DNA of 59,819 nucleotides from a virus (taxonomy: Duplodnaviria; Caudoviricetes). The DNA lies in IMG/VR virus record IMGVR_UViG_3300033149_006677, positions 1-59,819 of that record. One strand, 5' to 3'. Of the stretch, positions 32,217 through 59,819 are shown piece after piece (the first letter of the stretch is position 1; every line of letters begins with the position of its first letter). The position numbers and the translations under genes were made by a program. Below the pieces are notes generated by a model. It ran no database searches, had not been told where the DNA came from, and saw only the letters and a list, made by a program, of their open reading frames with translations.

Positions 32217-32550
32217 AGAAATCCGCAAGCTTGGCGAGTTAAAAGGGTATCTATCTATTAAGGATATTGTCCGAGGGACACATTTGAGCGAGTCATCGAT
32301 TCGCAGCCTCATCTATTCTGGTGAGCTACCAGCCCGAAAGGACGCTGGTATCTGGAAGGTATCTGTCGAAGACCTTGAAAATATGCAACCGAAGGATCAC
32401 AGGAAGCGCAAGCTTTCTGATGAGGACGTTCGTTTTATCAGGGAAAATAGGGGCAAGATTTTACAAGAGGACCTTGCCAAGATGTTTGGCGTATCCACGT
32501 CACACATTAGCTATATTCAGCTGAGGAAACGACGCCCAAATGTCAGATAA
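32200..32550 (+). CDS. Double HTH DNA-binding protein
   Basis: GELPA.K..W.V then KLS..DV..IR...LAKMFGVS. Confidence 0.7.
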   Translation: MVEISEEIRKLGELKGYLSIKDIVRGTHLSESSIRSLIYSGELPARKDAGIWKVSVEDLENMQPKDHRKRKLSDEDVRFIRENRGKILQEDLAKMFGVSTSHISYIQLRKRRPNVR

Positions 32551-33184
32551 CGTTCCTATTTTGGCACAGGTTATTCCCCATGCCAAGCCAACACTTGTCT
32601 CTTTGGATTTCGATCCTAATATCACCGAGGAGCAATTTGGTTCCGTTTTGCACTGCCTTGTAGACATGCAGGTATTTTCAGGAAGGTATCTTCCTATCTA
32701 TCTTGGTGATGCTCTGAACTATGGAGAGATGCGCTGGAAAGAGACTTACGCGCAATATGTAGACATAACGGGGCTCCGCGTCGAGTTACTCAGAGATTAT
32801 AAGTGGGTTATGGGGCGCGTACCCAAGGCGATTAGGAGAGAAAACCTGTACTACGGACATTACAAGGCAGTTGCGCCACTCAGCACTATTGAGGAACGAG
32901 CGGCTTGGCTGGATTGGGCGGACAAAAATAACGTCTCGACAACGGAGTTAAGAGAGGCGATTAAGTTAACGCGCTCACAGAATGAACCAGAAGAAGAGGT
33001 GCTACCACCAGAGGATGATAAAATCCTGTTAAGTAACGAGCCCGAAGATGTTTCACCAGAAGATGTTGACATCAGGGATATTGTTATAGCACTGGTAGCT
33101 ACTGCCAGGAAAGAGGCTTGGGATCAAGTCTGGGAGCTGATAAAGATCCTCGCTCAAAAATACAACATCGCCTACCCCGAATAA
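32540..33184 (+). CDS. LmbU-like DNA-binding protein
   Basis: GD.L.YGE..., WV...VP...RR..L...H...VA.L...WL..A. Confidence 0.55.
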   Translation: MSDNVPILAQVIPHAKPTLVSLDFDPNITEEQFGSVLHCLVDMQVFSGRYLPIYLGDALNYGEMRWKETYAQYVDITGLRVELLRDYKWVMGRVPKAIRRENLYYGHYKAVAPLSTIEERAAWLDWADKNNVSTTELREAIKLTRSQNEPEEEVLPPEDDKILLSNEPEDVSPEDVDIRDIVIALVATARKEAWDQVWELIKILAQKYNIAYPE

Positions 33185-33204
33185 CGCTCTCAGGCTCGAT
33201 ACAT

Positions 33205-33242
33205 AAAAAGAGAGAGCTCCCGTTTTGGGAGCTCTCTCTTTG
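33205..33242. terminator. Bidirectional intrinsic terminator (ends Y-RNA transcripts on minus strand)
   Basis: AAAAAGAGAGAGCTCCC-gtttt-GGGAGCTCTCTCTTT. Confidence 0.85.
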
Positions 33243-33335
33243 TGAAAGGGGCGGGAACGGAATCACACAGCGAACAAGAAAGGAGCGATGAGAGTGAGAG
33301 AAGGAGGGTGCTGTGTCGTATTATTCTGTTTTATC

Positions 33336-33405
33336 GCGGGCAAATATCGGTATGGGAATTCGGCAATCGTCAACATTATTGATAACCCATACCACTCGGC
33401 CCTGC
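33336..33405 (-). ncRNA. Y RNA-like ncRNA 1 (Ro60-binding core; transcript probably runs to ~33205)
   Basis: GGGC(C)GA/UUGCCC bulged-C helix, GGUAUGGG/CCCAUACC stem, UUAUC; promoter gives +1 at 33405; adjacent to Ro60. Confidence 0.85.
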
Positions 33406-33411
33406 ATAACT

Positions 33412-33440
33412 ACTATAGCACAAAAAACCTAGCTTGTCAA
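33412..33440 (-). promoter_or_regulatory. Sigma70 promoter of Y RNA 1
   Basis: TTGACA-N17-TATAGT with TG. Confidence 0.85.
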
Positions 33441-33445
33441 GGTTC

Positions 33446-33553
33446 GCGGGCAAGGTGCGATACGGGGATTAAGCGGCACATGGCCACTGGGGTTTCAAAC
33501 CGATAACCCGTATCTTTCGGCCCTGCATTAGCAGGAACCCCCACGGTTCCTGC
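33446..33553 (-). ncRNA. Y RNA-like ncRNA 2 (core 33446-33526) with 5' hairpin 33531-33553
   Basis: GGGCCGAAAG (GNCGAANG motif), GAUACGGG/CCCGUAUC stem with compensatory changes vs copy 1, UUAUC. Confidence 0.85.
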
Positions 33554-33560
33554 GTAAACT

Positions 33561-33589
33561 AGTATAGCACAAAACGTTTGTCTTGTCAA
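33561..33589 (-). promoter_or_regulatory. Sigma70 promoter of Y RNA 2
   Basis: TTGACA-N17-TATACT with TG. Confidence 0.85.
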
Positions 33590-33602
33590 GCCCCACAGAG
33601 AA

Positions 33603-33627
33603 GGAAAGCGCCCTTTGGGCGCTTTCC
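33603..33627 (-). terminator. Hairpin downstream of Ro60
   Basis: GGAAAGCGCCC-ttt-GGGCGCTTTCC. Confidence 0.65.
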
Positions 33628-33676
33628 CGATGGCCCTCGGCCATCCACCTCCACTACAGGATTGCCTATATTATAG

Positions 33677-35341
33677 CTAATCTCTCTTGGAGAACAAATC
33701 TCCACGGACAAATCTTTCCAATACTTTCAGTGCGCCCGTGTCAAGACCAACGATGCCTAGCGAACCAGGGTCCTCTGGGTCGAGAATTGTTATATCCGTA
33801 GCCGTCATCGCAAGGACAAAAATCTTTGCGTCTGGATTCACATATTTCCGATACTGTTTAAGCGCCTCTACTGGATGCGTATCACCATACCACGTTTCGG
33901 AGTCGGTGATAACACCGAATACATCAACTTTGATATTATTATGTAGGGCATACAGCATCGGCGCGGCACAATCTGTAGCACCAAAATATAGGCGATTCGA
34001 TCGCTCAATCACATCTCTTGGCCCATCACCTGGCAGTACGATCAATGGTTGCACGTGATGAGAAAACGCAGTAGTTCTCACCTTGTCCCCAAGCTTATTT
34101 ACGAACATGGATGCTATAGCGGCGCCCGCTTCCCTACAGGTAATGTTCCTCATGGGGCTTTCCCAATCCATAGACCCAGAGACATCAAGCGCCAATAACA
34201 CCGAGGTATCTCCCAGATCAACATTATCCATAGACAGGAAAAATGCTTGCTCAAGCGCGGCCTCAATATCGTGGTCAATTTGAAGCCTATCTCTTACTGC
34301 ATCTGGGTCTTGCATATACATCAGCTGTAGGTATTTATCCTCTTTCGGCTTAACATATGCTAGCAATGCCTGCAATACAGACATAGGATGGATTCTCGCA
34401 ACGCGCAGATATTTTGGACTGGTAACCCTGCTGATGAGCAGCTCCTTATACTTCTTATCTTTCCAAATGCCGCGGGAGCCCAGTTGCCGTATATTTCTGA
34501 GCAATGCGTCGAGTGGCATATCGGGCAGCAGCTCTTTCCAAACGTCATCGTCATTCAGCCATTTGCCTGGCACAAACTCCCAAGCAGCGCGGTTTTCTCT
34601 GATGAGCGATATAACCTCTTCCTTGGTCTGTGCTCTCTTTAGCCTTTCGACAAGACCGATCGATGGTAACGAAAACAAATCGCAGAATTCTACAGACTCG
34701 CGCTCTACTTTTCCTAATGCCCAACGGTATGCCAGGTTATGTCTCTTGTCTTGGCATCTCACATGTGCCAGGCGCAAGACATCCCTATGCGTCCAGCGTA
34801 CCCCCTCGATAGTTCTGCCTTGGTACTTGGCCATTTGGAAACCAATAGCGTCAAGATCTTTGCCATTATACCAGCTTTCGATCAGTCGTCTGATTCTACG
34901 ACCCCAGCCACGCAGTGCGTTAATATAGTGTACGAACATGAACAGATGTGTACCCGTGCGCACTACTTTGCGGAATGCGCAACCCGCATACCTATAATCG
35001 TCCTTAAAGGCGATTAGGTCAGGTAGAAAAGCAACAGCCAGGGCAAAAAGCGCTGGATTGTTCTTGGGCGCTCGCCCCTTGGTAGAGACATCGACGATCA
35101 TATCGATCGCCTTTTTGTAGTTTTCGTTTAGACACTCTTTGATGCGTTCGTAGTTGCTCTTAACGAGGTCGCGCTCTTTTACATAGTACGTACCGCCCTC
35201 AGCACCGAGAATCAGAAAGCGCTCAAATGCTTCCCACTTATCGGTTCTATAAGCATAGCCACCCGCATTATTTGGTTGCATTCCTGGTGGCGGCTCGCTT
35301 TGTAGCATACCCAACTGCATGAAATGTTTTGCGTATGGCAT
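33677..35341 (-). CDS. rsr: Ro60/Rsr TROVE + vWA RNA-binding protein
   Basis: NNAGGY, RFLILG.EGGTYY, GRAPK, RTGTHLF.F, GWGR, KYQ.R, WTHRD.LRLAH, DVSGSM, TDC, TDSETW; AGGAGG RBS. Confidence 0.95.
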   Translation of the reverse strand: MPYAKHFMQLGMLQSEPPPGMQPNNAGGYAYRTDKWEAFERFLILGAEGGTYYVKERDLVKSNYERIKECLNENYKKAIDMIVDVSTKGRAPKNNPALFALAVAFLPDLIAFKDDYRYAGCAFRKVVRTGTHLFMFVHYINALRGWGRRIRRLIESWYNGKDLDAIGFQMAKYQGRTIEGVRWTHRDVLRLAHVRCQDKRHNLAYRWALGKVERESVEFCDLFSLPSIGLVERLKRAQTKEEVISLIRENRAAWEFVPGKWLNDDDVWKELLPDMPLDALLRNIRQLGSRGIWKDKKYKELLISRVTSPKYLRVARIHPMSVLQALLAYVKPKEDKYLQLMYMQDPDAVRDRLQIDHDIEAALEQAFFLSMDNVDLGDTSVLLALDVSGSMDWESPMRNITCREAGAAIASMFVNKLGDKVRTTAFSHHVQPLIVLPGDGPRDVIERSNRLYFGATDCAAPMLYALHNNIKVDVFGVITDSETWYGDTHPVEALKQYRKYVNPDAKIFVLAMTATDITILDPEDPGSLGIVGLDTGALKVLERFVRGDLFSKRD

Positions 35342-35366
35342 AGTTACCCTCCTATTGTCTGAAGAT

Positions 35367-35434
35367 ACTATAACATAAAGGCGCGAGTTTGTCAAATATC
35401 GAGACTTGACTAGCTTTTCGTTTTGTGCTATACT
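35367..35434. promoter_or_regulatory. Back-to-back sigma70 promoters (Ro60 leftward; structured RNA/replication genes rightward)
   Basis: TTGACA-N17-TATAGT on minus; TTGACT-N17-TATACT on plus (35406-35434). Confidence 0.8.
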
Positions 35435-35440
35435 ATTATC

Positions 35441-35592
35441 GTCGGTGGGCGAGCTAGTTAGTGACACCCCAATATCCCCAAACAACTATTAACAAGCTCA
35501 AGTCACATTGCAGAAGACTCCGAAAACCGCACAAAATACCCAACGCGCAGATAAATGCCCACCGGCAGTGGGGCGGGAATTCCCGCCCCACT
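35441..35592 (+). ncRNA. Candidate structured sRNA or 5' leader
   Basis: Starts at predicted +1; 10-bp closing stem around ~105-nt A/C-rich loop; 26-bp palindromic hairpin. Confidence 0.5.
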
Positions 35593-45484: not shown

Positions 45485-45937
45485 ATGACCAAGATAGGAG
45501 GAATGAGAGTGAGGTTCTTTGTTATTCTGAACGTGAAGAATCTTGAAAAGGGAGAGCAGGTATGGCCGAAGGATAAGCCTGGTGGGCTCGCACTTGTGGA
45601 CAGGATTCGAGAAGAGTATCCGCAGGTGTCGCTCTCTGACATCGTTTCCGAGCCCATTCAGCGCTACAGACAGAAAGGCAAACGCGTAGCGATAGAGATC
45701 CATGATGAGGGACTTATCCGAGAGATCGGTAGGCGCTCTGGCGCATTCATGAACCACAATGCTGTTGAGGTTGATGTTAGCCTTGGGCTTTTGCAGGAGC
45801 GTTATTTGATTTGGGATGTGAAGCGAAGTGATTACGGGACGCTCCTGGTCGCCGAGATTTTGATGGATAAGTTTATTCTCGATTGGTTTGGGCGGATTCG
45901 CTGGCGCCCAGTAAAAGTGAAGTCATGGATGCTATAG
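45485..45937 (+). CDS. Hypothetical protein, distant paralog of 2522/3022 family
   Basis: GGL.L.D..R..Y motif. Confidence 0.55.
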   Translation: MTKIGGMRVRFFVILNVKNLEKGEQVWPKDKPGGLALVDRIREEYPQVSLSDIVSEPIQRYRQKGKRVAIEIHDEGLIREIGRRSGAFMNHNAVEVDVSLGLLQERYLIWDVKRSDYGTLLVAEILMDKFILDWFGRIRWRPVKVKSWML

Positions 45938-52178: not shown

Positions 52179-53234
52179 TTACTTGATCTCTTTCACCTTA
52201 TCCCTGATGGCGCGCAAGGCTATAGGCCATGTGTCCTTGCCATCGTACATGGCAAACGCGACGGGCATTGCGCGCTTAGGGATATTCTTCACAACCCATT
52301 GTGCGAAGCTTGCGCGATCTTGGTCAAGCTCTGACGCAATGTTGGCTTTCGTGCATTCAGAGACAACCTCGAGGGCATGATTCTCTATACGCGATACGAT
52401 GGACAAAATACGGGGCAAGAATTCGTCTGGTATTCCCTCGATGTAGTCGGGTAAAGAACCATCCAGCATATACTGGTAGATGCGCTTGGGCGACATATTG
52501 TAGAGCATACGATGGACTCTAAGATAGTCATCGCCCTTGAACTTGAATCGTTGGCCGTCCTTGAATCTTGCTACAAAGCCTTCCATCTCCGCAGCTTCTA
52601 TCTCTCTGGTCGCATCGATGAGCTCATCGATGTTACGGAAGAACCACATTTTAGGCGTAGACAGATTCAGCTCCTTGGCTAATGGCAGAAACTCTGTCAT
52701 CCAGTAGTCCTGTCCCGTAAAGCGATCAATGCAGCCTATTAGCACCAATTCGCTTTTTCCCTTGTAATCTACTACTATTCGGTTTTCTGGATAGATAATC
52801 TCGAATAGCAGCGTTAGATTGTCGGGGATCTTGGATACATCCACGTGCTTGTTGAGCCATTCGGTTGCCCATAGTGCTTGGTCGGATGTAAACGACTGCT
52901 TTGTCGCAATCTTGTGTTCGCCATTCTCGCGATACAAGATGCCCAGGGAGCCGTCCATCTTTGTGGTCACTTCCCGAAGGGGGGCGGATGTGACCCGCCC
53001 CCCTTGATTCCAGTTGAAAAACTTTTCGAATGGTAGCGCGACAATCTCTCTCGTGCTTGGATTGAGAATAAGGCCACGGCAGATACGCTCTACCCAAGGC
53101 CATTTATCCTCTATCACCGCATTCCTGGTGTAGTGCAGTAGCACCAGATCATTGTGTTTTATGCGGCGGATGTTCCAGAGCTTTTCGATTTCTACGCCGC
53201 GCTCGATCATGTCAAACAGGACACTGATATTCAT
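52179..53234 (-). CDS. T4 Rnl1-like RNA ligase
   Basis: CRGLI, PFEKFFN, KMDGSL, FE, EGFV, KFK...Y. Confidence 0.9.
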   Translation of the reverse strand: MNISVLFDMIERGVEIEKLWNIRRIKHNDLVLLHYTRNAVIEDKWPWVERICRGLILNPSTREIVALPFEKFFNWNQGGRVTSAPLREVTTKMDGSLGILYRENGEHKIATKQSFTSDQALWATEWLNKHVDVSKIPDNLTLLFEIIYPENRIVVDYKGKSELVLIGCIDRFTGQDYWMTEFLPLAKELNLSTPKMWFFRNIDELIDATREIEAAEMEGFVARFKDGQRFKFKGDDYLRVHRMLYNMSPKRIYQYMLDGSLPDYIEGIPDEFLPRILSIVSRIENHALEVVSECTKANIASELDQDRASFAQWVVKNIPKRAMPVAFAMYDGKDTWPIALRAIRDKVKEIK

Positions 53235-53244
53235 CTCGTCTCTC

Positions 53245-53604
53245 CTAGATGCCAAGCTTGCGACGAATTAGCTCCACGAATTGTGGACAATACTTGGTTA
53301 TAGCATGTGGTCGCTTGTCGATGAGGCTTTGAGCAATGCGCTTTATTGCGTCCATTGCATCCTCGGCATAGATGGTCGCTGCAATACGGTCGTCTATGCT
53401 AGGATGTGCCCCCTCGCCCCATCGTTTCAAAATATCAATGGTCTCCGACGCGTCTTGGCGCGTCATGTCCTCTGTCTGTAGATCGAACTGGTCAACGAAT
53501 TCCGCAACAGTTGGGAATGCGTCACGGTAGAGATCCGCTTGGCGCTTAATGCGCTCAACTAGATCGTTGATATAGGCCAATTGCTTTTCTGTAGCTTCTC
53601 TCAT
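53245..53604 (-). CDS. Hypothetical protein
   Basis: ATEKQL.YI..L...AS..ID; AAGGAGG RBS. Confidence 0.7.
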   Translation of the reverse strand: MREATEKQLAYINDLVERIKRQADLYRDAFPTVAEFVDQFDLQTEDMTRQDASETIDILKRWGEGAHPSIDDRIAATIYAEDAMDAIKRIAQSLIDKRPHAITKYCPQFVELIRRKLGI

Positions 53605-53807
53605 CGCTGTTTCCTCCTTGCCATTATCCAGGCGTTTCTAATCAGCCTCAGCATTCCAATGGTGAATATAACGATATTCAGGTATAGCAATGCATATCCC
53701 CCTTCCCATGTATCTTTGCGCAAAGATACATGCTTTATTCTGATGTTTTTGTACAGACCCATAGGCCAATGAGAATAGCCAGCGTGAATGACAGCATAAA
53801 CACCAAG

Positions 53808-55967: not shown

Positions 55968-55979
55968 TTTGCTCCTTTC

Positions 55980-56231
55980 TCATCTGAAACTAGGTATGTA
56001 CCAATCGTCGGCGGGGATACCATCTGCCAAGTTTTCGTATTCCCACCGACGTAGGATGCGTGTAAGGCTTGAACATGCTTTCCAGCGTTTCTTTGGATCT
56101 TTTGTTCTCTGGATGACCCGAAGGTCATCCAGAGCGCAGCGCAATTGCGTTTTTCTGAGATGAAGCGCGATAGCTTCATCTCGAAGGTACTTTGCCAATT
56201 CTCGGACAGTCATCACGTAGTCACAATCCAT
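55980..56231 (-). CDS. Hypothetical protein
   Basis: AAGGAGG RBS. Confidence 0.6.
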   Translation of the reverse strand: MDCDYVMTVRELAKYLRDEAIALHLRKTQLRCALDDLRVIQRTKDPKKRWKACSSLTRILRRWEYENLADGIPADDWYIPSFR

Positions 56232-56524
56232 CGCTCGTCCTCCTTCTCATGCTCGTCGTAGTAATTGAGAAGGGCCCTTATGCATGCCAAGCGGCTTCTG
56301 AATGGCCCTATCTCAATTCCCTCCCAGGCATCACCATTTTCATCGACGCCATGCAGGAACCCTCGCCATCCGCCACGTGAGTAGTAGACAGATGCTCGTA
56401 TCCCCGCTTGGAATGACGTACCGTCGCGATGCTGTATCGGCATGTCGCAGGGCTGTATGGGGACATCATCTGACAGCGTAAATGTCTCGACACGATACCA
56501 ATACCATTCGCTTTCTCCTGGCAT
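56213..56524 (-). CDS. Hypothetical protein, paralog of 59202-59474
   Basis: GW...LHGV...G......GPF..R. Confidence 0.65.
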   Translation of the reverse strand: MPGESEWYWYRVETFTLSDDVPIQPCDMPIQHRDGTSFQAGIRASVYYSRGGWRGFLHGVDENGDAWEGIEIGPFRSRLACIRALLNYYDEHEKEDERWIVTT

Positions 56525-56536
56525 CTTGCTCCTTTC

Positions 56537-56803
56537 TTAGATTAGCCCCAAGATCAATGGCCAAGCCGGATAGCCATGTGGGCAATGGCCATCCGGTTCT
56601 ACCCAGCATCCGTCCGGCGTTTCGCAAACGCCATCCATCATTTGCTCCACCATGTCGTCGAAGCTCGGGACATCATGGAGCTCCCAGAACCCATTGTGTT
56701 TCTCTGCTAGATGGTCCCTCTTCTCTTTGGGGATAGATGCCTTGTAGGCTCTACCATCTAGCAGGCCGTCGGAAGAGATGTGGAAAAACACGTATGCTTT
56801 CAC
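56537..56803 (-). CDS. Small Cys/His protein
   Basis: CE..DGC.VEPDG.CPHG...LGLI. Confidence 0.7.
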   Translation of the reverse strand: MKAYVFFHISSDGLLDGRAYKASIPKEKRDHLAEKHNGFWELHDVPSFDDMVEQMMDGVCETPDGCWVEPDGHCPHGYPAWPLILGLI

Positions 56804-57108: not shown

Positions 57109-57119
57109 TTTGCTCCTTT

Positions 57120-57383
57120 CTAGACAATGGTCCACTCTAGGAAACATTCTTTGGCTTGCTGGAGTGCATCCTCCAGCAAGCCTCGATCGCCCTTCCGTAT
57201 GGCATCGGCTATCTTCAGCGCGATGCCGAGTGCGGAATGCTCGTAGCAATAGAAAGATGCTACAGAGCAGAAAGCACAATCCACGAAAGCGTGATTGTCG
57301 CTGTGCGCGATTGCTTGCTCGATATCATCGAGAGCAACCGCTGCATCCCGAAAATAGTTCAGCCAATTCTTTTGTTCAGCCAT
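57120..57383 (-). CDS. Hypothetical protein, paralog of 56800-57108
   Basis: Same motif. Confidence 0.7.
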   Translation of the reverse strand: MAEQKNWLNYFRDAAVALDDIEQAIAHSDNHAFVDCAFCSVASFYCYEHSALGIALKIADAIRKGDRGLLEDALQQAKECFLEWTIV

Positions 57384-59120: not shown

Positions 59121-59193
59121 TGTCGCCAGCGGGACTCGAACCCGCATTCTGGCCTTGAAAGGGCCATGTCCTATCCAGTTAGACGATGGCGAC
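59121..59193 (-). tRNA. tRNA-Glu (anticodon UUC), no encoded CCA
   Basis: GTCGCCA/TGGCGAC acceptor stem, TGGCC-CTTTCAA-GGCCA anticodon arm, GCGGG-TTCGAGT-CCCGC T arm. Confidence 0.93.
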
Positions 59194-59705: not shown

Positions 59706-59819
59706 ACATTATGTCAACTGAACATATGTTCTATAGAACAGGCGTTCTATTGACATAATAGTGGAACAAATGTTCTATTGACATAACGCATTCGAACATA
59801 TGTTCTAAATGGCCCTAGC
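59706..59819. repeat. Direct terminal repeat, right copy
   Basis: Identical to 1-114. Confidence 0.95.

What the first reader, a model, noticed from the sequence alone, without database searches (positions are those of the whole stretch)
33205..33405. Y RNA with a 3' multi-target antisense tail against the phage's own early mRNAs: candidate Ro60-tethered RNA guide
Seen: Y RNA 1 starts at 33405 (minus) and has no terminator until 33205-33242, so it carries a ~95-nt 3' extension. This includes a 7-bp stem (ACACAGC/GCUGUGU) around a C/U-rich loop, reading ACCCUCCUUCUCUCACUCUCAUCGCUCCUUUCUUGUUCGCUGUGUGAUUCCGUUCCCGCCCCUUUCACA. It aligns colinearly with the + strand at 981-1034, the antisense of the 5' UTR/RBS of early gene 702-983: blocks TCAC, CTC, TCGCTCC, TGTTC.CT, TGTG, TTCCGTTCC, TTCACA occur in the same order. 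Other segments match further early-gene initiation regions: GCTCCTTTCTT (56528-56538), GCTCCTTTCT (55971-55980, 57112-57121), CTCTCATCGCT over the ATG of gene 53604 (53598-53608), CATCGCTC and CCTCCTTCTC (56229-56248), CCCCTTTC (570-577), and ACCCTCCT at the Ro60 RBS (35346-35353). Established: bacterial Y RNAs are modular, with a Ro-binding stem plus an effector domain that can tether Rsr to PNPase. Inference: the effector here is a mosaic base-pairing guide that brings Ro60 (and perhaps a nuclease) to early mRNAs to silence them, or to host RBSs generally. I know of no described Ro60 RNP of this type. Caveat: anti-SD cores match any RBS, so the signal lies in the flanks and colinearity.
Basis: partly seen in the sequence, partly recalled or inferred. 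Interest (0 to 1): 0.92.

Follow-up and report, generated by a model that had tools for sequence, protein, structure and literature searches.

The report
Phage Y RNA with pyrimidine-rich trailer
A phage carries a Ro60 gene followed by two small Y RNA genes, and the odd C/U-rich stretch after the last Y RNA looks like the reverse of an ordinary gene start rather than a purpose-built guide against early phage messages.

Summary
It has a Ro60 gene (TROVE plus vWA_Ro60), two tandem Y-RNA-like genes each behind a near-consensus sigma-70 promoter, no terminator until 33207-33241, and a 92-nt C/U-rich stretch (33243-33334) with a 7-bp stem and two anti-Shine-Dalgarno cores. All cited short matches exist.

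The claimed specificity does not hold:
- The 'colinear' match to 981-1034 scores at chance (110 of 300 shuffles do as well).
- Pairing to gene leaders beats plain shuffles (0 of 200). It does not beat shuffles that keep the two anti-SD cores (17-20 of 200).
- The supposed early genes are no better targets than the replication block (p=0.70).
- 24 of 91 antisenses of real gene starts pair with leaders as well as the tail does.

On the + strand the stretch reads like a phage translation-initiation region. Its best match is the start of gene 45503, with 23 of 27 identical.

None of 38 bacterial Y RNAs of the same class has such a tail.

Most likely this is a 3' trailer of a Y RNA precursor. A real anti-SD riboregulator remains possible at about 0.2. 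No RNA data or diverged relatives were available to decide.

The parts
35367..35395 (-). Promoter of the Ro60 gene (TTGACA-17-TATAGT, TG-extended)
   Evidence: 11 of 12 consensus positions; one of six promoters of this class in the genome
33677..35341 (-). Ro60 / Rsr homologue, 554 aa
   Evidence: PF05731 TROVE, PF25045 vWA_Ro60; 92% identical protein P0002 in a Logan contig; at most 36% identity to actinophage Ro60s
33603..33628 (-). Hairpin after the Ro60 stop codon, without a proper T run; not called a terminator by the scan
   Evidence: sequence read; absent from the terminator list
33561..33589 (-). Promoter of Y RNA 2 (TTGACA-17-TATACT, TG-extended)
33531..33553 (-). 5' leader hairpin between the predicted start of the Y RNA 2 transcript and Y RNA 2
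   Evidence: -17.8 kcal/mol; kept in relative X1 despite a 1-nt loop deletion
33446..33526 (-). Y RNA 2 (81 nt); no terminator follows it
   Evidence: Rfam RF00019 15 bits, E 4.3. Shares the 5' GCAGGGCCGA..GGGUUAUC and 3' UUGCCCGCGA strands with Y RNA 1, with two compensatory pair changes in the upper stem. Its internal hairpin is kept through changes in X1.
33412..33440 (-). Promoter of Y RNA 1 (TTGACA-17-TATAGT, TG-extended)
33336..33405 (-). Y RNA 1 (about 70 nt): basal stem with bulged A, 8-9 bp upper stem, small apical region
   Evidence: Rfam RF00019 25 bits, E 0.01, and RF01656 19.3 bits; fold; model R1
33243..33334 (-). The 'tail': 92-nt C/U-rich (67%) spacer between Y RNA 1 and the terminator. 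On the + strand it reads as a purine-rich leader plus RBS plus ATG (33288).
33265..33316 (-). 7-bp stem (33316-33310 with 33271-33265) closing a 38-nt loop
   Evidence: MFE -10.25 kcal/mol, z -1.5; the stem is unchanged in X1
33301..33308 (-). Anti-SD core 1, CCCUCCUU, in the loop
   Evidence: X1 has C>U at 33300, just 3' of it
33277..33286 (-). Anti-SD core 2, GCUCCUUUCU, in the loop; complement of the + strand RBS-like AGAAAGGAGC
   Evidence: X1 has C>U at 33283 inside it
33207..33241 (-). Intrinsic terminator (15-bp stem, 5-nt loop, TTTTTAT), shared head-to-head with the convergent + strand late gene 32540-33184
   Evidence: In X1 there are 9 substitutions and 2 deletions, yet a 13-bp stem of equal energy remains (-27.8 kcal/mol in both).
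33288..33506 (+). 72-aa ORF antisense to the Y RNAs; judged non-coding
   Evidence: no Pfam family; 11 nt differences give 7 aa differences in X1; only 2 nt between GGAG and ATG, seen in 3 of 54 real starts (spacer 2 nt or less)
45487..45513 (+). Translation-initiation region of gene 45503-45937 (144 aa, unknown function): best match of the tail anywhere in the genome. It is either a paralogous sequence or the best candidate target.
   Evidence: 23 of 27 identical to the + strand of the tail; score 34; 0 of 300 shuffles on that strand, 1 of 300 on either strand; duplex -41.3 kcal/mol

Best explanation
The stretch 33205-33405 is the last transcription unit of a phage Ro60-Y RNA cassette. Host RNA polymerase starts at a consensus sigma-70 promoter (33440-33412). 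It transcribes the ~70-nt Y RNA 1, runs on through a 92-nt spacer, and stops at the only terminator of the cassette (33241-33207). That terminator also closes the convergent late operon. Transcripts from the Y RNA 2 promoter, and possibly from the Ro60 promoter, have no terminator of their own and end at the same place. The Y RNAs must therefore be cut and trimmed out of longer precursors, as shown for bacterial Y RNAs. The Ro60-bound stems survive and the spacer is a 3' trailer that is discarded. The trailer looks like an anti-RBS guide because its complement has the composition and motifs of an ordinary translation-initiation region of this phage: a purine-rich leader, AGAAAGGAGC, then ATGAGAGTGAG. 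That is most simply a remnant or duplicate of a gene start such as that of gene 45503, left next to the late terminator when the cassette was acquired in the opposite orientation. What is shown: the cassette anatomy, the Y RNA class, the lack of early-gene specificity, and the TIR-like complement. What is inferred: processing at about 33335, loss of the trailer, and the relic origin.
For: PROCESSING IS BUILT INTO THE CASSETTE
- Y RNA 2 has a 5' leader hairpin and no terminator before the Y RNA 1 promoter.
- Chen et al. 2014 (PMC4201824, passages read) report that M. smegmatis YrlA/YrlB are 'processed from a single precursor'. [quoted passage not shown]
- In bacterial relatives the same class of Y RNA sits inside tRNA arrays or in the Ro60 leader, on the Ro60 strand.

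THE TAIL IS NOT PART OF THE FAMILY DESIGN
- Of 38 bacterial Y RNA matches with E<0.01, 0 have a downstream 92 nt with pyrimidine fraction of 0.67 or more (maximum 0.63).
- 0 of 38 have C/G of 3 or more, and 1 of 38 has any CCTCC/CTCCT.

COMPLEMENTARITY IS GENERIC
- Core-preserving shuffles do as well as the tail (17/200, 20/200).
- There is no early-gene preference (p=0.70 against the middle block).
- The colinear alignment is at chance (110/300).
- Of the antisenses of 91 real gene starts, 24 pair as well on average, 8 have as many leaders at -30 kcal/mol or below, and 7 have as good a best hit.

THE + STRAND IS TIR-LIKE
- The PWM score of 11.0 is the 63rd percentile of the phage's own 91 starts.
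- Only 56 of about 119,600 positions reach that score, and 34 of those are called starts.
- Its purine content is within the range of sense strands (109 of 5716 windows as high). As a - strand transcript it is outside the range of all sense windows (0 of 5715).

STRUCTURE
- The tail's own structure is weak (z -1.5).
Against: - The tail is the most C-rich, G-poor and anti-SD-rich piece of any transcribed strand. CTCCTT occurs 5 times in 57 kb of sense strand and twice in these 92 nt. C/G of 3.0 is reached by 0 of 11,443 sense windows. A passive relic explains this only if the relic story is true, and no relative lacking the cassette was found to show that.
- Two SD-like cores 25 nt apart are not what a single gene start leaves behind.
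- Both cores lie in the loop of a hairpin, followed by a strong terminator. That is sRNA-like anatomy.
- Residual excess over core-preserving shuffles: 12 leaders at -30 kcal/mol or below against 6.2 expected (5/200), and 5 minus-arm leaders against 1.8 expected (5/200).
- The tail is the least diverged part of the non-coding module in relative X1: 2 of 93 positions against 31 of 399 elsewhere (Fisher p=0.063).
- The tail is identical over 33196-33346 in an X4 contig that carries a different Y-RNA-like sequence upstream.
- Both X1 changes are C>U in the RNA, which would keep pairing with G.
- The mature 3' end was not observed.
Confidence: 0.5

Rival explanations
1. The tail is a working anti-Shine-Dalgarno / anti-initiation riboregulator made from the strong Y RNA 1 promoter. 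It either stays attached to Y RNA 1 or is released by a cut in the A/U-rich linker (33334-33317) as a terminator-stabilised small RNA. Its two C/U-rich cores, held open in a 38-nt loop, pair with strong RBSs. They pair best with the start region of gene 45503 and with several minus-arm and middle-block genes, and so lower translation initiation or trigger cleavage. This would work like the C-rich-motif sRNAs RsaE/RoxS.
For: - Two anti-SD cores lie in a predicted loop, followed by a strong terminator.
- Anti-SD motifs are rare on all other transcribed strands (CCTCC 0.24 per kb, CTCCTT 0.09 per kb) but dense here.
- Pairing to leaders exceeds dinucleotide shuffles (0/200 for all leaders).
- More leaders reach -30 kcal/mol or below than with core-preserving shuffles (5/200).
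- There is a 23-of-27 complementarity, with an 11-bp perfect helix over the start codon of gene 45503. It is reached by 1 of 300 shuffles on either strand.
- The tail is 98% identical in X1 and 100% in X4. The two X1 changes are C>U, compatible with G.U pairing.
- It is driven by one of only six consensus extended -10 promoters in the genome.
- Precedent: RsaE/RoxS bind SD sequences through duplicated C-rich motifs, one of them in a loop (PMC6158497, passages read).
Against: - Mean pairing is not better than shuffles that keep the cores (17-24 of 200), so no target-specific flanks are demonstrable.
- There is no class specificity.
- The antisense of an ordinary gene start does as well in 24 of 91 cases.
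- The stem is not significant (14/200).
- One X1 change weakens core 2, from CUCC to CUUC.
- A general anti-SD RNA would also hit the phage's own translation.
- Nothing bears on Ro60 tethering, and a 3' extension is not where Y RNA effector modules sit in known Y RNAs (established knowledge, recalled).
- None of 38 related bacterial Y RNAs has such a tail.
Confidence: 0.2
2. The tail is a transcription insulator. As an untranslated, unstructured, C-rich and G-poor RNA it serves as a Rho loading (rut) site. It backs up the intrinsic terminator so that the very strong Y RNA promoters do not send antisense transcription into the convergent late operon.
For: - C/G ratio of 3.0 over 78 nt. It is reached by 0 of 11,443 sense-strand windows (median 0.78, 99th percentile 1.60).
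- Weak structure.
- The position is right: directly upstream of the point where the cassette meets the 3' end of late gene 32540-33184.
- Three consensus promoters fire toward this point.
Against: - A 15-bp GC-rich terminator with a U run already stands there.
- Composition alone does not explain the two anti-SD cores, because dinucleotide shuffles pair worse with leaders (0/200).
- The host is unknown, so its dependence on Rho is unknown.
- rut sites have no sequence signature that could be tested here.
Confidence: 0.12
3. The + strand is the functional one. The RBS-like AGAAAGGAGC and ATG at 33288 start a small protein (72 aa, 33288-33506) or a short leader peptide, translated from late-operon read-through. 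The C/U-rich - strand would then be only its complement.
For: - TIR score in the 63rd percentile of real starts.
- Open frame of 72 codons that stays open in X1.
- It shares its first four codons' DNA (ATGAGAGTGAG) with gene 45503.
Against: - 11 nt differences give 7 aa differences in X1, so there is no sign of purifying selection. The same differences preserve the Y RNA 2 hairpin on the other strand.
- The X1 change at 33283 weakens the RBS, from GGAG to GAAG.
- Only 2 nt separate GGAG from ATG. Spacers of 2 nt or less occur in 3 of 54 real starts that have GGAG.
- No Pfam family.
- No + strand promoter in 32800-35400 apart from 35406.
- The ORF lies behind the late terminator and runs antisense through two strong promoters.
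Confidence: 0.05

Closest known systems
Bacterial and phage Y RNAs next to Ro60/Rsr (YrlA, YrlB, Yrn1, Yrn2; Chen et al. 2014, PMC4201824) and Thermus phage phiLo Ro60 with Yrl1/Yrl2 (PMC12135203)
   Same: - A Ro60 gene with two Y-RNA-like genes beside it on the same strand.
- 5' and 3' ends pair in a bulged stem with the conserved CCGA / GGGUUAUC-type strand.
- Maturation from longer precursors is the rule in the studied bacteria (passages).
- phiLo also has two Yrls (passages).
   Different: - Here the Y RNAs lie downstream of Ro60, each with its own consensus promoter. In phiLo and in 3 of 6 actinophage loci examined they lie upstream.
- There is no tRNA-like domain: no RF02553 YrlA match at E up to 10.
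- They are short, like metazoan Y RNAs and nematode sbRNAs.
- A 92-nt C/U-rich stretch precedes the terminator. It is absent from 38 of 38 related bacterial Y RNAs.
Metazoan Y RNA (Rfam RF00019) and nematode stem-bulge RNAs (RF01656)
   Same: These are the best Rfam matches of Y RNA 1 (25 and 19.3 bits). Five bacterial matches of my model reach the RF01656 gathering score.
   Different: The phage RNAs are below both gathering scores (38). They have bacterial promoters and an intrinsic terminator instead of Pol III signals.
C-rich-motif sRNAs of Firmicutes (RsaE / RoxS; PMC6158497)
   Same: - Duplicated C-rich motifs, one in a hairpin loop, that pair with G-rich SD regions of several mRNAs.
- Terminator hairpin at the 3' end (passages).
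   Different: - No sequence relation.
- Here there is no separate promoter: the stretch is fused behind a Y RNA.
- Pairing beyond the cores is not demonstrable.
- No expression data.
Rho utilisation (rut) sites
   Same: C-rich, G-poor, poorly structured, untranslated RNA of about 80 nt. The definition is recalled from general knowledge.
   Different: It sits in front of a strong intrinsic terminator. Rho dependence is untested and the host is unknown.

Membership tests
Y RNA (Ro60-associated ncRNA) | Encoded beside a Ro60/TROVE gene, same strand | tested here: met
   Ro60 lies at 33677-35341 (-) and the Y RNAs at 33526-33446 and 33405-33336 (-).
Y RNA (Ro60-associated ncRNA) | 5' and 3' ends form a bulged stem carrying the conserved Ro-binding strands; match to a Y RNA covariance model | tested here: inconclusive
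   The fold shows the stem. RF00019 gives 25 bits (E 0.01) and 15 bits (E 4.3), both below the gathering score of 38. In support, model R1 built from the two RNAs finds 81 matches in other Ro60 loci, 81 of 81 on the Ro60 strand.
Y RNA (Ro60-associated ncRNA) | Base pairs kept by compensatory change | tested here: met
   Y1 versus Y2: U-A to C-G and G-C to A-U in the upper stem. X1 versus the window: the Y RNA 2 internal hairpin goes from U.G to U-A with the stem kept. These are few sequences, so the support is modest. The X1 Y RNA 1 has one G>A that breaks a pair.
Y RNA (Ro60-associated ncRNA) | Bound and stabilised by Ro60 | not testable with these tools
   Needs co-immunoprecipitation.
YrlA-type Y RNA | tRNA-like domain (T-arm, acceptor-like stem) | tested here: not met
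   No RF02553 match at E up to 10 in 33100-33750. Actinophage loci do give RF02553 matches at 26.7-36.6 bits.
Trans-acting anti-SD sRNA (RsaE/RoxS-like) | C-rich / anti-SD motifs exposed in unpaired regions, 3' terminator hairpin | tested here: met
   The cores at 33308-33301 and 33286-33277 lie in the 38-nt loop. The terminator is at 33241-33207.
Trans-acting anti-SD sRNA (RsaE/RoxS-like) | Complementarity to target initiation regions beyond what composition and the SD core give | tested here: inconclusive
   Mean energies are not above core-preserving shuffles (17-24 of 200). The count of strong duplexes is marginal (5/200). The 45503 match is reached by 1 of 300 shuffles. Real-TIR antisenses do as well in 24 of 91 cases.
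Trans-acting anti-SD sRNA (RsaE/RoxS-like) | Exists as a stable RNA | not testable with these tools
   It needs RNA 3'/5' end mapping, which none of the tools used here gives.
Rho-dependent terminator / rut site | C>G skewed, unstructured, untranslated stretch of about 80 nt | tested here: met
   C/G of 3.0, reached by 0 of 11,443 sense windows; z -1.5.
Rho-dependent terminator / rut site | Termination depends on Rho | not testable with these tools
   The host is unknown and there are no transcript data.
Protein-coding gene on the + strand (33288-33506) | Purifying selection on the protein; recognisable relatives | tested here: not met
   7 aa changes from 11 nt changes in X1; no Pfam family.

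The most novel reading that the evidence does not exclude
The phage has fused a multi-target anti-initiation RNA to a Y RNA gene. The strong Y RNA 1 promoter makes a bipartite transcript whose 3' part carries two exposed anti-SD cores plus an 11-nt anti-start-codon segment. That part binds the initiation regions of strong-RBS messages: gene 45503 first, then several early and middle phage genes, and possibly host messages. Either as a free sRNA or while held on Ro60, it hands them to a 3'-5' exonuclease recruited by the Ro60-Y RNA particle. That would be the first sequence-guided Ro60 RNP.
Probability: 0.12. Interest if true: 0.85.

Novelty: new member of a known kind. Interest (0 to 1): 0.3.

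Why it matters
Phage Ro60-Y RNA modules are known, but their purpose is open. The phiLo study proposes hijacking of host PNPase.

This phage devotes three of its six consensus promoters to such a module and also carries an Rnl1-like RNA ligase and a tRNA. It is therefore a compact case for studying what a viral Ro60 particle does.

If the C/U-rich trailer were functional, it would give Ro60 a sequence-directed targeting mode that has not been described. My search for papers holding 'Y RNA', 'Ro60' and 'Shine-Dalgarno' listed only two reviews. As the evidence stands, the trailer is more likely a by-product.

The useful lesson is methodological. The antisense of any gene start in a strong-SD genome shows 'mosaic' matches to many other gene starts.

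The covariance model also shows that short, sbRNA-like Y RNAs beside Ro60 are common in Verrucomicrobiota, Chloroflexota and others. Rfam covers them poorly.

Tried and rejected
RELATIVES
- Ro60 peptide patterns and a degenerate Y RNA pattern found nothing in IMG/VR.
- The neighbouring late gene and a replication gene found no relatives there either.
- JGI metagenome contigs gave nothing with the Ro60 alignment (192 pattern hits, 0 confirmed) or with the Y RNA pattern.
- GTDB genomes gave nothing with the Y RNA pattern.
- GenBank phages hold only Ro60s of 36% identity or less (354 records). The only DNA matches are 63 nt long.
- The only close relatives are Logan contigs. Run X5 laid nothing. 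X3 covers only 33092-33258 and parts of 33557-34100.
- The differences table omitted 8 rows, so the divergence counts use the 40 rows shown plus the indels.

RNA EVIDENCE
- No RNA holder was listed by the look-up of sequencing runs, so the 3' end could not be examined.

ACTINOPHAGE COMPARISON
- YrlA-like matches appeared in 3 of 6 loci, upstream of Ro60. This says nothing about the tail.

PALINDROME HALF-SITE
- GGGGCGGGAA in the tail also forms the 26-nt palindrome at 35567-35592. However, there were 5 matches against 2.94 expected, and 22 of 100 shuffles did as well. I rejected it as an operator.

OTHER REJECTED READINGS
- A promoter for the tail inside Y RNA 1: none was found.
- Minus-strand ORF 33263-33376 (37 aa): it has no SD, so I did not pursue it.
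- Tail as a third Y RNA: model R1 finds only Y1 and Y2 in the window.

METHOD LIMITS
- The gene list for the leader tests came from my own crude caller. It was pruned from 107 to 91 ORFs by dropping 3 calls inside 33196-33676 and ORFs under 60 aa with an SD match under 5.
- Four starts were then corrected by hand, giving 93 genes. The results did not change.
- RNAduplex allows long internal loops and ignores accessibility. An IntaRNA-type run was not available.

TOOLS AND FILES NOT AVAILABLE
- Supplementary files of Chen et al. 2014 (lists and alignments of phage Y RNAs) were not seen. They could show whether similar short phage Y RNAs or trailers are already listed.
Full report
WHAT THE WINDOW IS

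The window is a complete virus record of 59,819 bp with 114-bp direct terminal repeats. Its gene blocks are:
- + strand structural genes from about 4.5 to 33.2 kb, including terminase, portal and major head protein.
- A short - strand block at 33.2-35.4 kb.
- A + strand replication block at 35.5-52.1 kb, including a primase zinc ribbon, a DnaB-like helicase and a methyltransferase.
- - strand blocks of small genes at 52.2-59.6 kb and 0.2-4.2 kb.

THE CASSETTE

The gene at 33677-35341 (-) encodes a 554-aa Ro60 homologue with TROVE and vWA_Ro60 domains.

Three near-identical TG-extended consensus promoters point the same way, at 35395, 33589 and 33440. A stricter pattern finds only six such promoters in the genome.

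Behind the second and third promoters lie two small RNAs. They share the strands GCAGGGCCGA...GGGUUAUC and UUGCCCGCGA, and they differ by two compensatory pair changes in the upper stem.

Y RNA 1 matches Rfam Y_RNA at 25 bits (E 0.01) and Y RNA 2 at 15 bits (E 4.3). Both are below the gathering score of 38. There is no YrlA match.

I built a covariance model from the two RNAs and searched 80 bacterial Ro60 loci (35-40% protein identity) and six actinophage loci. It found 81 matches at E up to 1, and all 81 are on the Ro60 strand. Five of these reach the gathering score of the nematode stem-bulge RNA family. The Y RNA identification is therefore sound. These are short, metazoan-like Y RNAs without a tRNA-like module.

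THE OBSERVATION

The scan finds no terminator on the - strand between the Ro60 gene and 33241. The single terminator at 33241-33207 has a 15-bp stem and a U run, and it faces the end of the convergent late gene 32540-33184. So the primary Y RNA 1 transcript should carry about 92 nt of extra sequence plus the terminator. Y RNA 2 transcripts should run through Y RNA 1 as well.

TESTS OF THE INTERPRETATION

(a) Colinear match. The match to 981-1034 has local alignment score 25, and 110 of 300 dinucleotide shuffles score at least 25 on that strand.

(b) Duplex energies against leaders (-30 to +12) of 91 genes.
- The tail gives a mean of -22.1 kcal/mol. That is better than 200 of 200 dinucleotide shuffles.
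- If the two cores CCCUCCUU and GCUCCUUUCU are kept and the rest is shuffled, 17 of 200 controls do as well for all leaders and 24 of 200 for minus-arm leaders.
- The difference between minus-arm genes and the rest is matched by 29 of 200 plain shuffles and 86 of 200 core-keeping shuffles.
- With four gene starts corrected (93 genes), the figures are 20/200, 18/200 and 54/200.
- Minus-arm and middle-block leaders do not differ (p=0.70). Both exceed late leaders (p=0.011 and 0.004), and the controls reproduce that difference. It goes with how often each class has GGAG/GAGG: 24/26, 20/28 and 28/38.
- The only residual signal is the number of strong duplexes: 12 against 6.2 expected overall, and 5 against 1.8 in the minus arm. 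Each is reached by 5 of 200 controls.

(c) Antisense of real gene starts. I took the antisense of each of the 91 real gene starts in the same 92-nt geometry.
- 24 pair with the other leaders as well on average as the tail does.
- 8 have as many strong duplexes.
- 7 have as good a best hit.

The 'mosaic' is therefore what any gene-start antisense shows in this genome.

WHAT THE STRETCH LOOKS LIKE

On the + strand it reads as a purine-rich leader, then AGAAAGGAGC, then ATGAGAGTGAG.
- A weight matrix from the phage's own starts scores it at 11.0, the 63rd percentile of real starts. Only 56 positions in both strands reach that score, and 34 of them are called starts.
- The best match of the tail anywhere in the genome is the start region of gene 45503-45937, with 23 of 27 identical. 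None of 300 shuffles reaches that score on the same strand, and 1 of 300 does on either strand.
- As a + strand sequence its purine content is high but within range (109 of 5716 sense windows). As a - strand transcript it is outside everything else the phage transcribes. Its purine fraction of 0.326 is matched by 0 of 5715 windows. Its C/G of 3.0 is matched by 0 of 11,443 windows. CTCCTT occurs twice here against 5 times in 57 kb.

The 72-codon + ORF is not a conserved gene.
- In relative X1, 11 nucleotide differences give 7 amino-acid differences. The same differences keep the Y RNA 2 hairpin on the other strand.
- Its RBS-to-ATG spacing of 2 nt is rare.

RELATIVES

No relative was found in IMG/VR, JGI metagenomes, GTDB genomes or GenBank phages. 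Logan contigs gave three partial views.

X1 (Ro60 92% identical) covers 32900-33838 with 49 differences.
- The tail has 2 of 93 positions changed. Both are C>U in the RNA, and one lies inside core 2.
- The terminator has 11 of 35 positions changed but keeps its stem and energy.
- Y RNA 1 has 3 of 71 changed and Y RNA 2 has 5 of 87.
- The tail's lower divergence is not significant (2/93 against 31/399, p=0.063).

An X4 contig is identical over 33196-33346 and then continues into a different Y-RNA-like 3' half. So Y RNAs are exchanged while the trailer and terminator stay.

Among 38 bacterial Y RNA matches with E<0.01, none has a C/U-rich, C>G-skewed downstream region, and 1 has any anti-SD pentamer. 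There the Y RNAs sit in tRNA arrays or in the Ro60 leader.

READING

Processing of Y RNAs from polycistronic precursors is documented (PMC4201824, passages). The layout here requires it, because Y RNA 2 has a 5' hairpin leader and no terminator.

The most economical account is that the tail is a 3' trailer. Its anti-RBS look comes from a TIR-like sequence on the other strand, probably a remnant or duplicate of a gene start beside the late terminator. Confidence is 0.5.

This leaves unexplained why there are two SD-like cores, why they sit in a loop, and why the stretch is so well kept.
- A working anti-SD riboregulator of the RsaE/RoxS kind (PMC6158497, passages) therefore stays alive at about 0.2. 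The Ro60-tethered version of it is at about 0.12.
- A Rho-loading insulator is at 0.12.
- A functional + strand start is at 0.05.

COMPARISON WITH KNOWN SYSTEMS AND NOVELTY

The cassette is a new member of the known phage Ro60-Y RNA kind (Chen et al. 2014; the phiLo study, PMC12135203, passages). Its layout is unusual: the Y RNAs lie downstream, each has its own promoter, and there is no tRNA-like module.

No paper in the library combines Y RNA, Ro60 and Shine-Dalgarno pairing beyond two reviews (listing only).

The guide idea is not refuted, but none of the controls aimed at it gives it support.

Noticed in passing
52179-53234 (-), 59121-59193 (-), 33336-35341 (-): The phage combines an Rnl1-like RNA ligase (phrog_562, E 7e-60), a tRNA-Glu(UUC) and the Ro60/Y RNA cassette. 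This looks like an RNA repair and quality-control toolkit, reminiscent of the bacterial rsr-yrlBA-rtcBA operon.
   Followed up: partly
35406 (+), 43188 (+), 35395 (-), 33589 (-), 33440 (-), 4349 (-): Six near-identical promoters of the form TTGAC-N14-16-TGnTAnAnT were found. Three of them serve the Ro60 cassette. 35395 (-) and 35406 (+) are a divergent pair 11 bp apart.
   Followed up: partly
35567-35592: A perfect 26-nt palindrome (centre GAATTC) lies between the + promoter at 35406 and the primase gene start. It is followed by TATAAT, so it may be an operator or a leader hairpin. Its half-site recurs in the tail at 33248-33257, but not above chance.
   Followed up: partly
L009-L088 (bacterial Ro60 loci): The model built from the two phage Y RNAs finds short Y-RNA-like elements on the Ro60 strand in many Verrucomicrobiota, Chloroflexota, Armatimonadota, Poribacteria and Myxococcota loci (81 of 81 matches co-oriented). 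They are often inside long tRNA arrays; for example, L026 has 14 tRNA matches. In the 20 loci scanned, Rfam's gathering scores catch only 5 of them, as nematode sbRNA, and none as YrlA.
   Followed up: partly
33346 / run X4 contig: A relative's contig is identical to the window over the terminator and tail (33196-33346). It then switches to a different Y-RNA-like 3' half resembling Y RNA 2. This suggests modular exchange or deletion among tandem Y RNAs.
   Followed up: no
33387 (X1 variant): In relative X1 the conserved GGGUUAUC strand of Y RNA 1 carries G>A, which breaks a pair of the upper stem (predicted energy -24.0 to -18.5 kcal/mol). Y RNA 2 changes are compensatory. Y RNA 1 may be under weaker constraint than Y RNA 2.
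   Followed up: no
33838-34010: In relative X1 a 171-nt segment inside the Ro60 gene (vWA region) has the same length but is too diverged to align at 80%. The flanks are about 95% identical. This is either a mosaic patch or a fast-evolving surface.
   Followed up: no
1-114 and 59706-59819: 114-bp direct terminal repeat.
   Followed up: no
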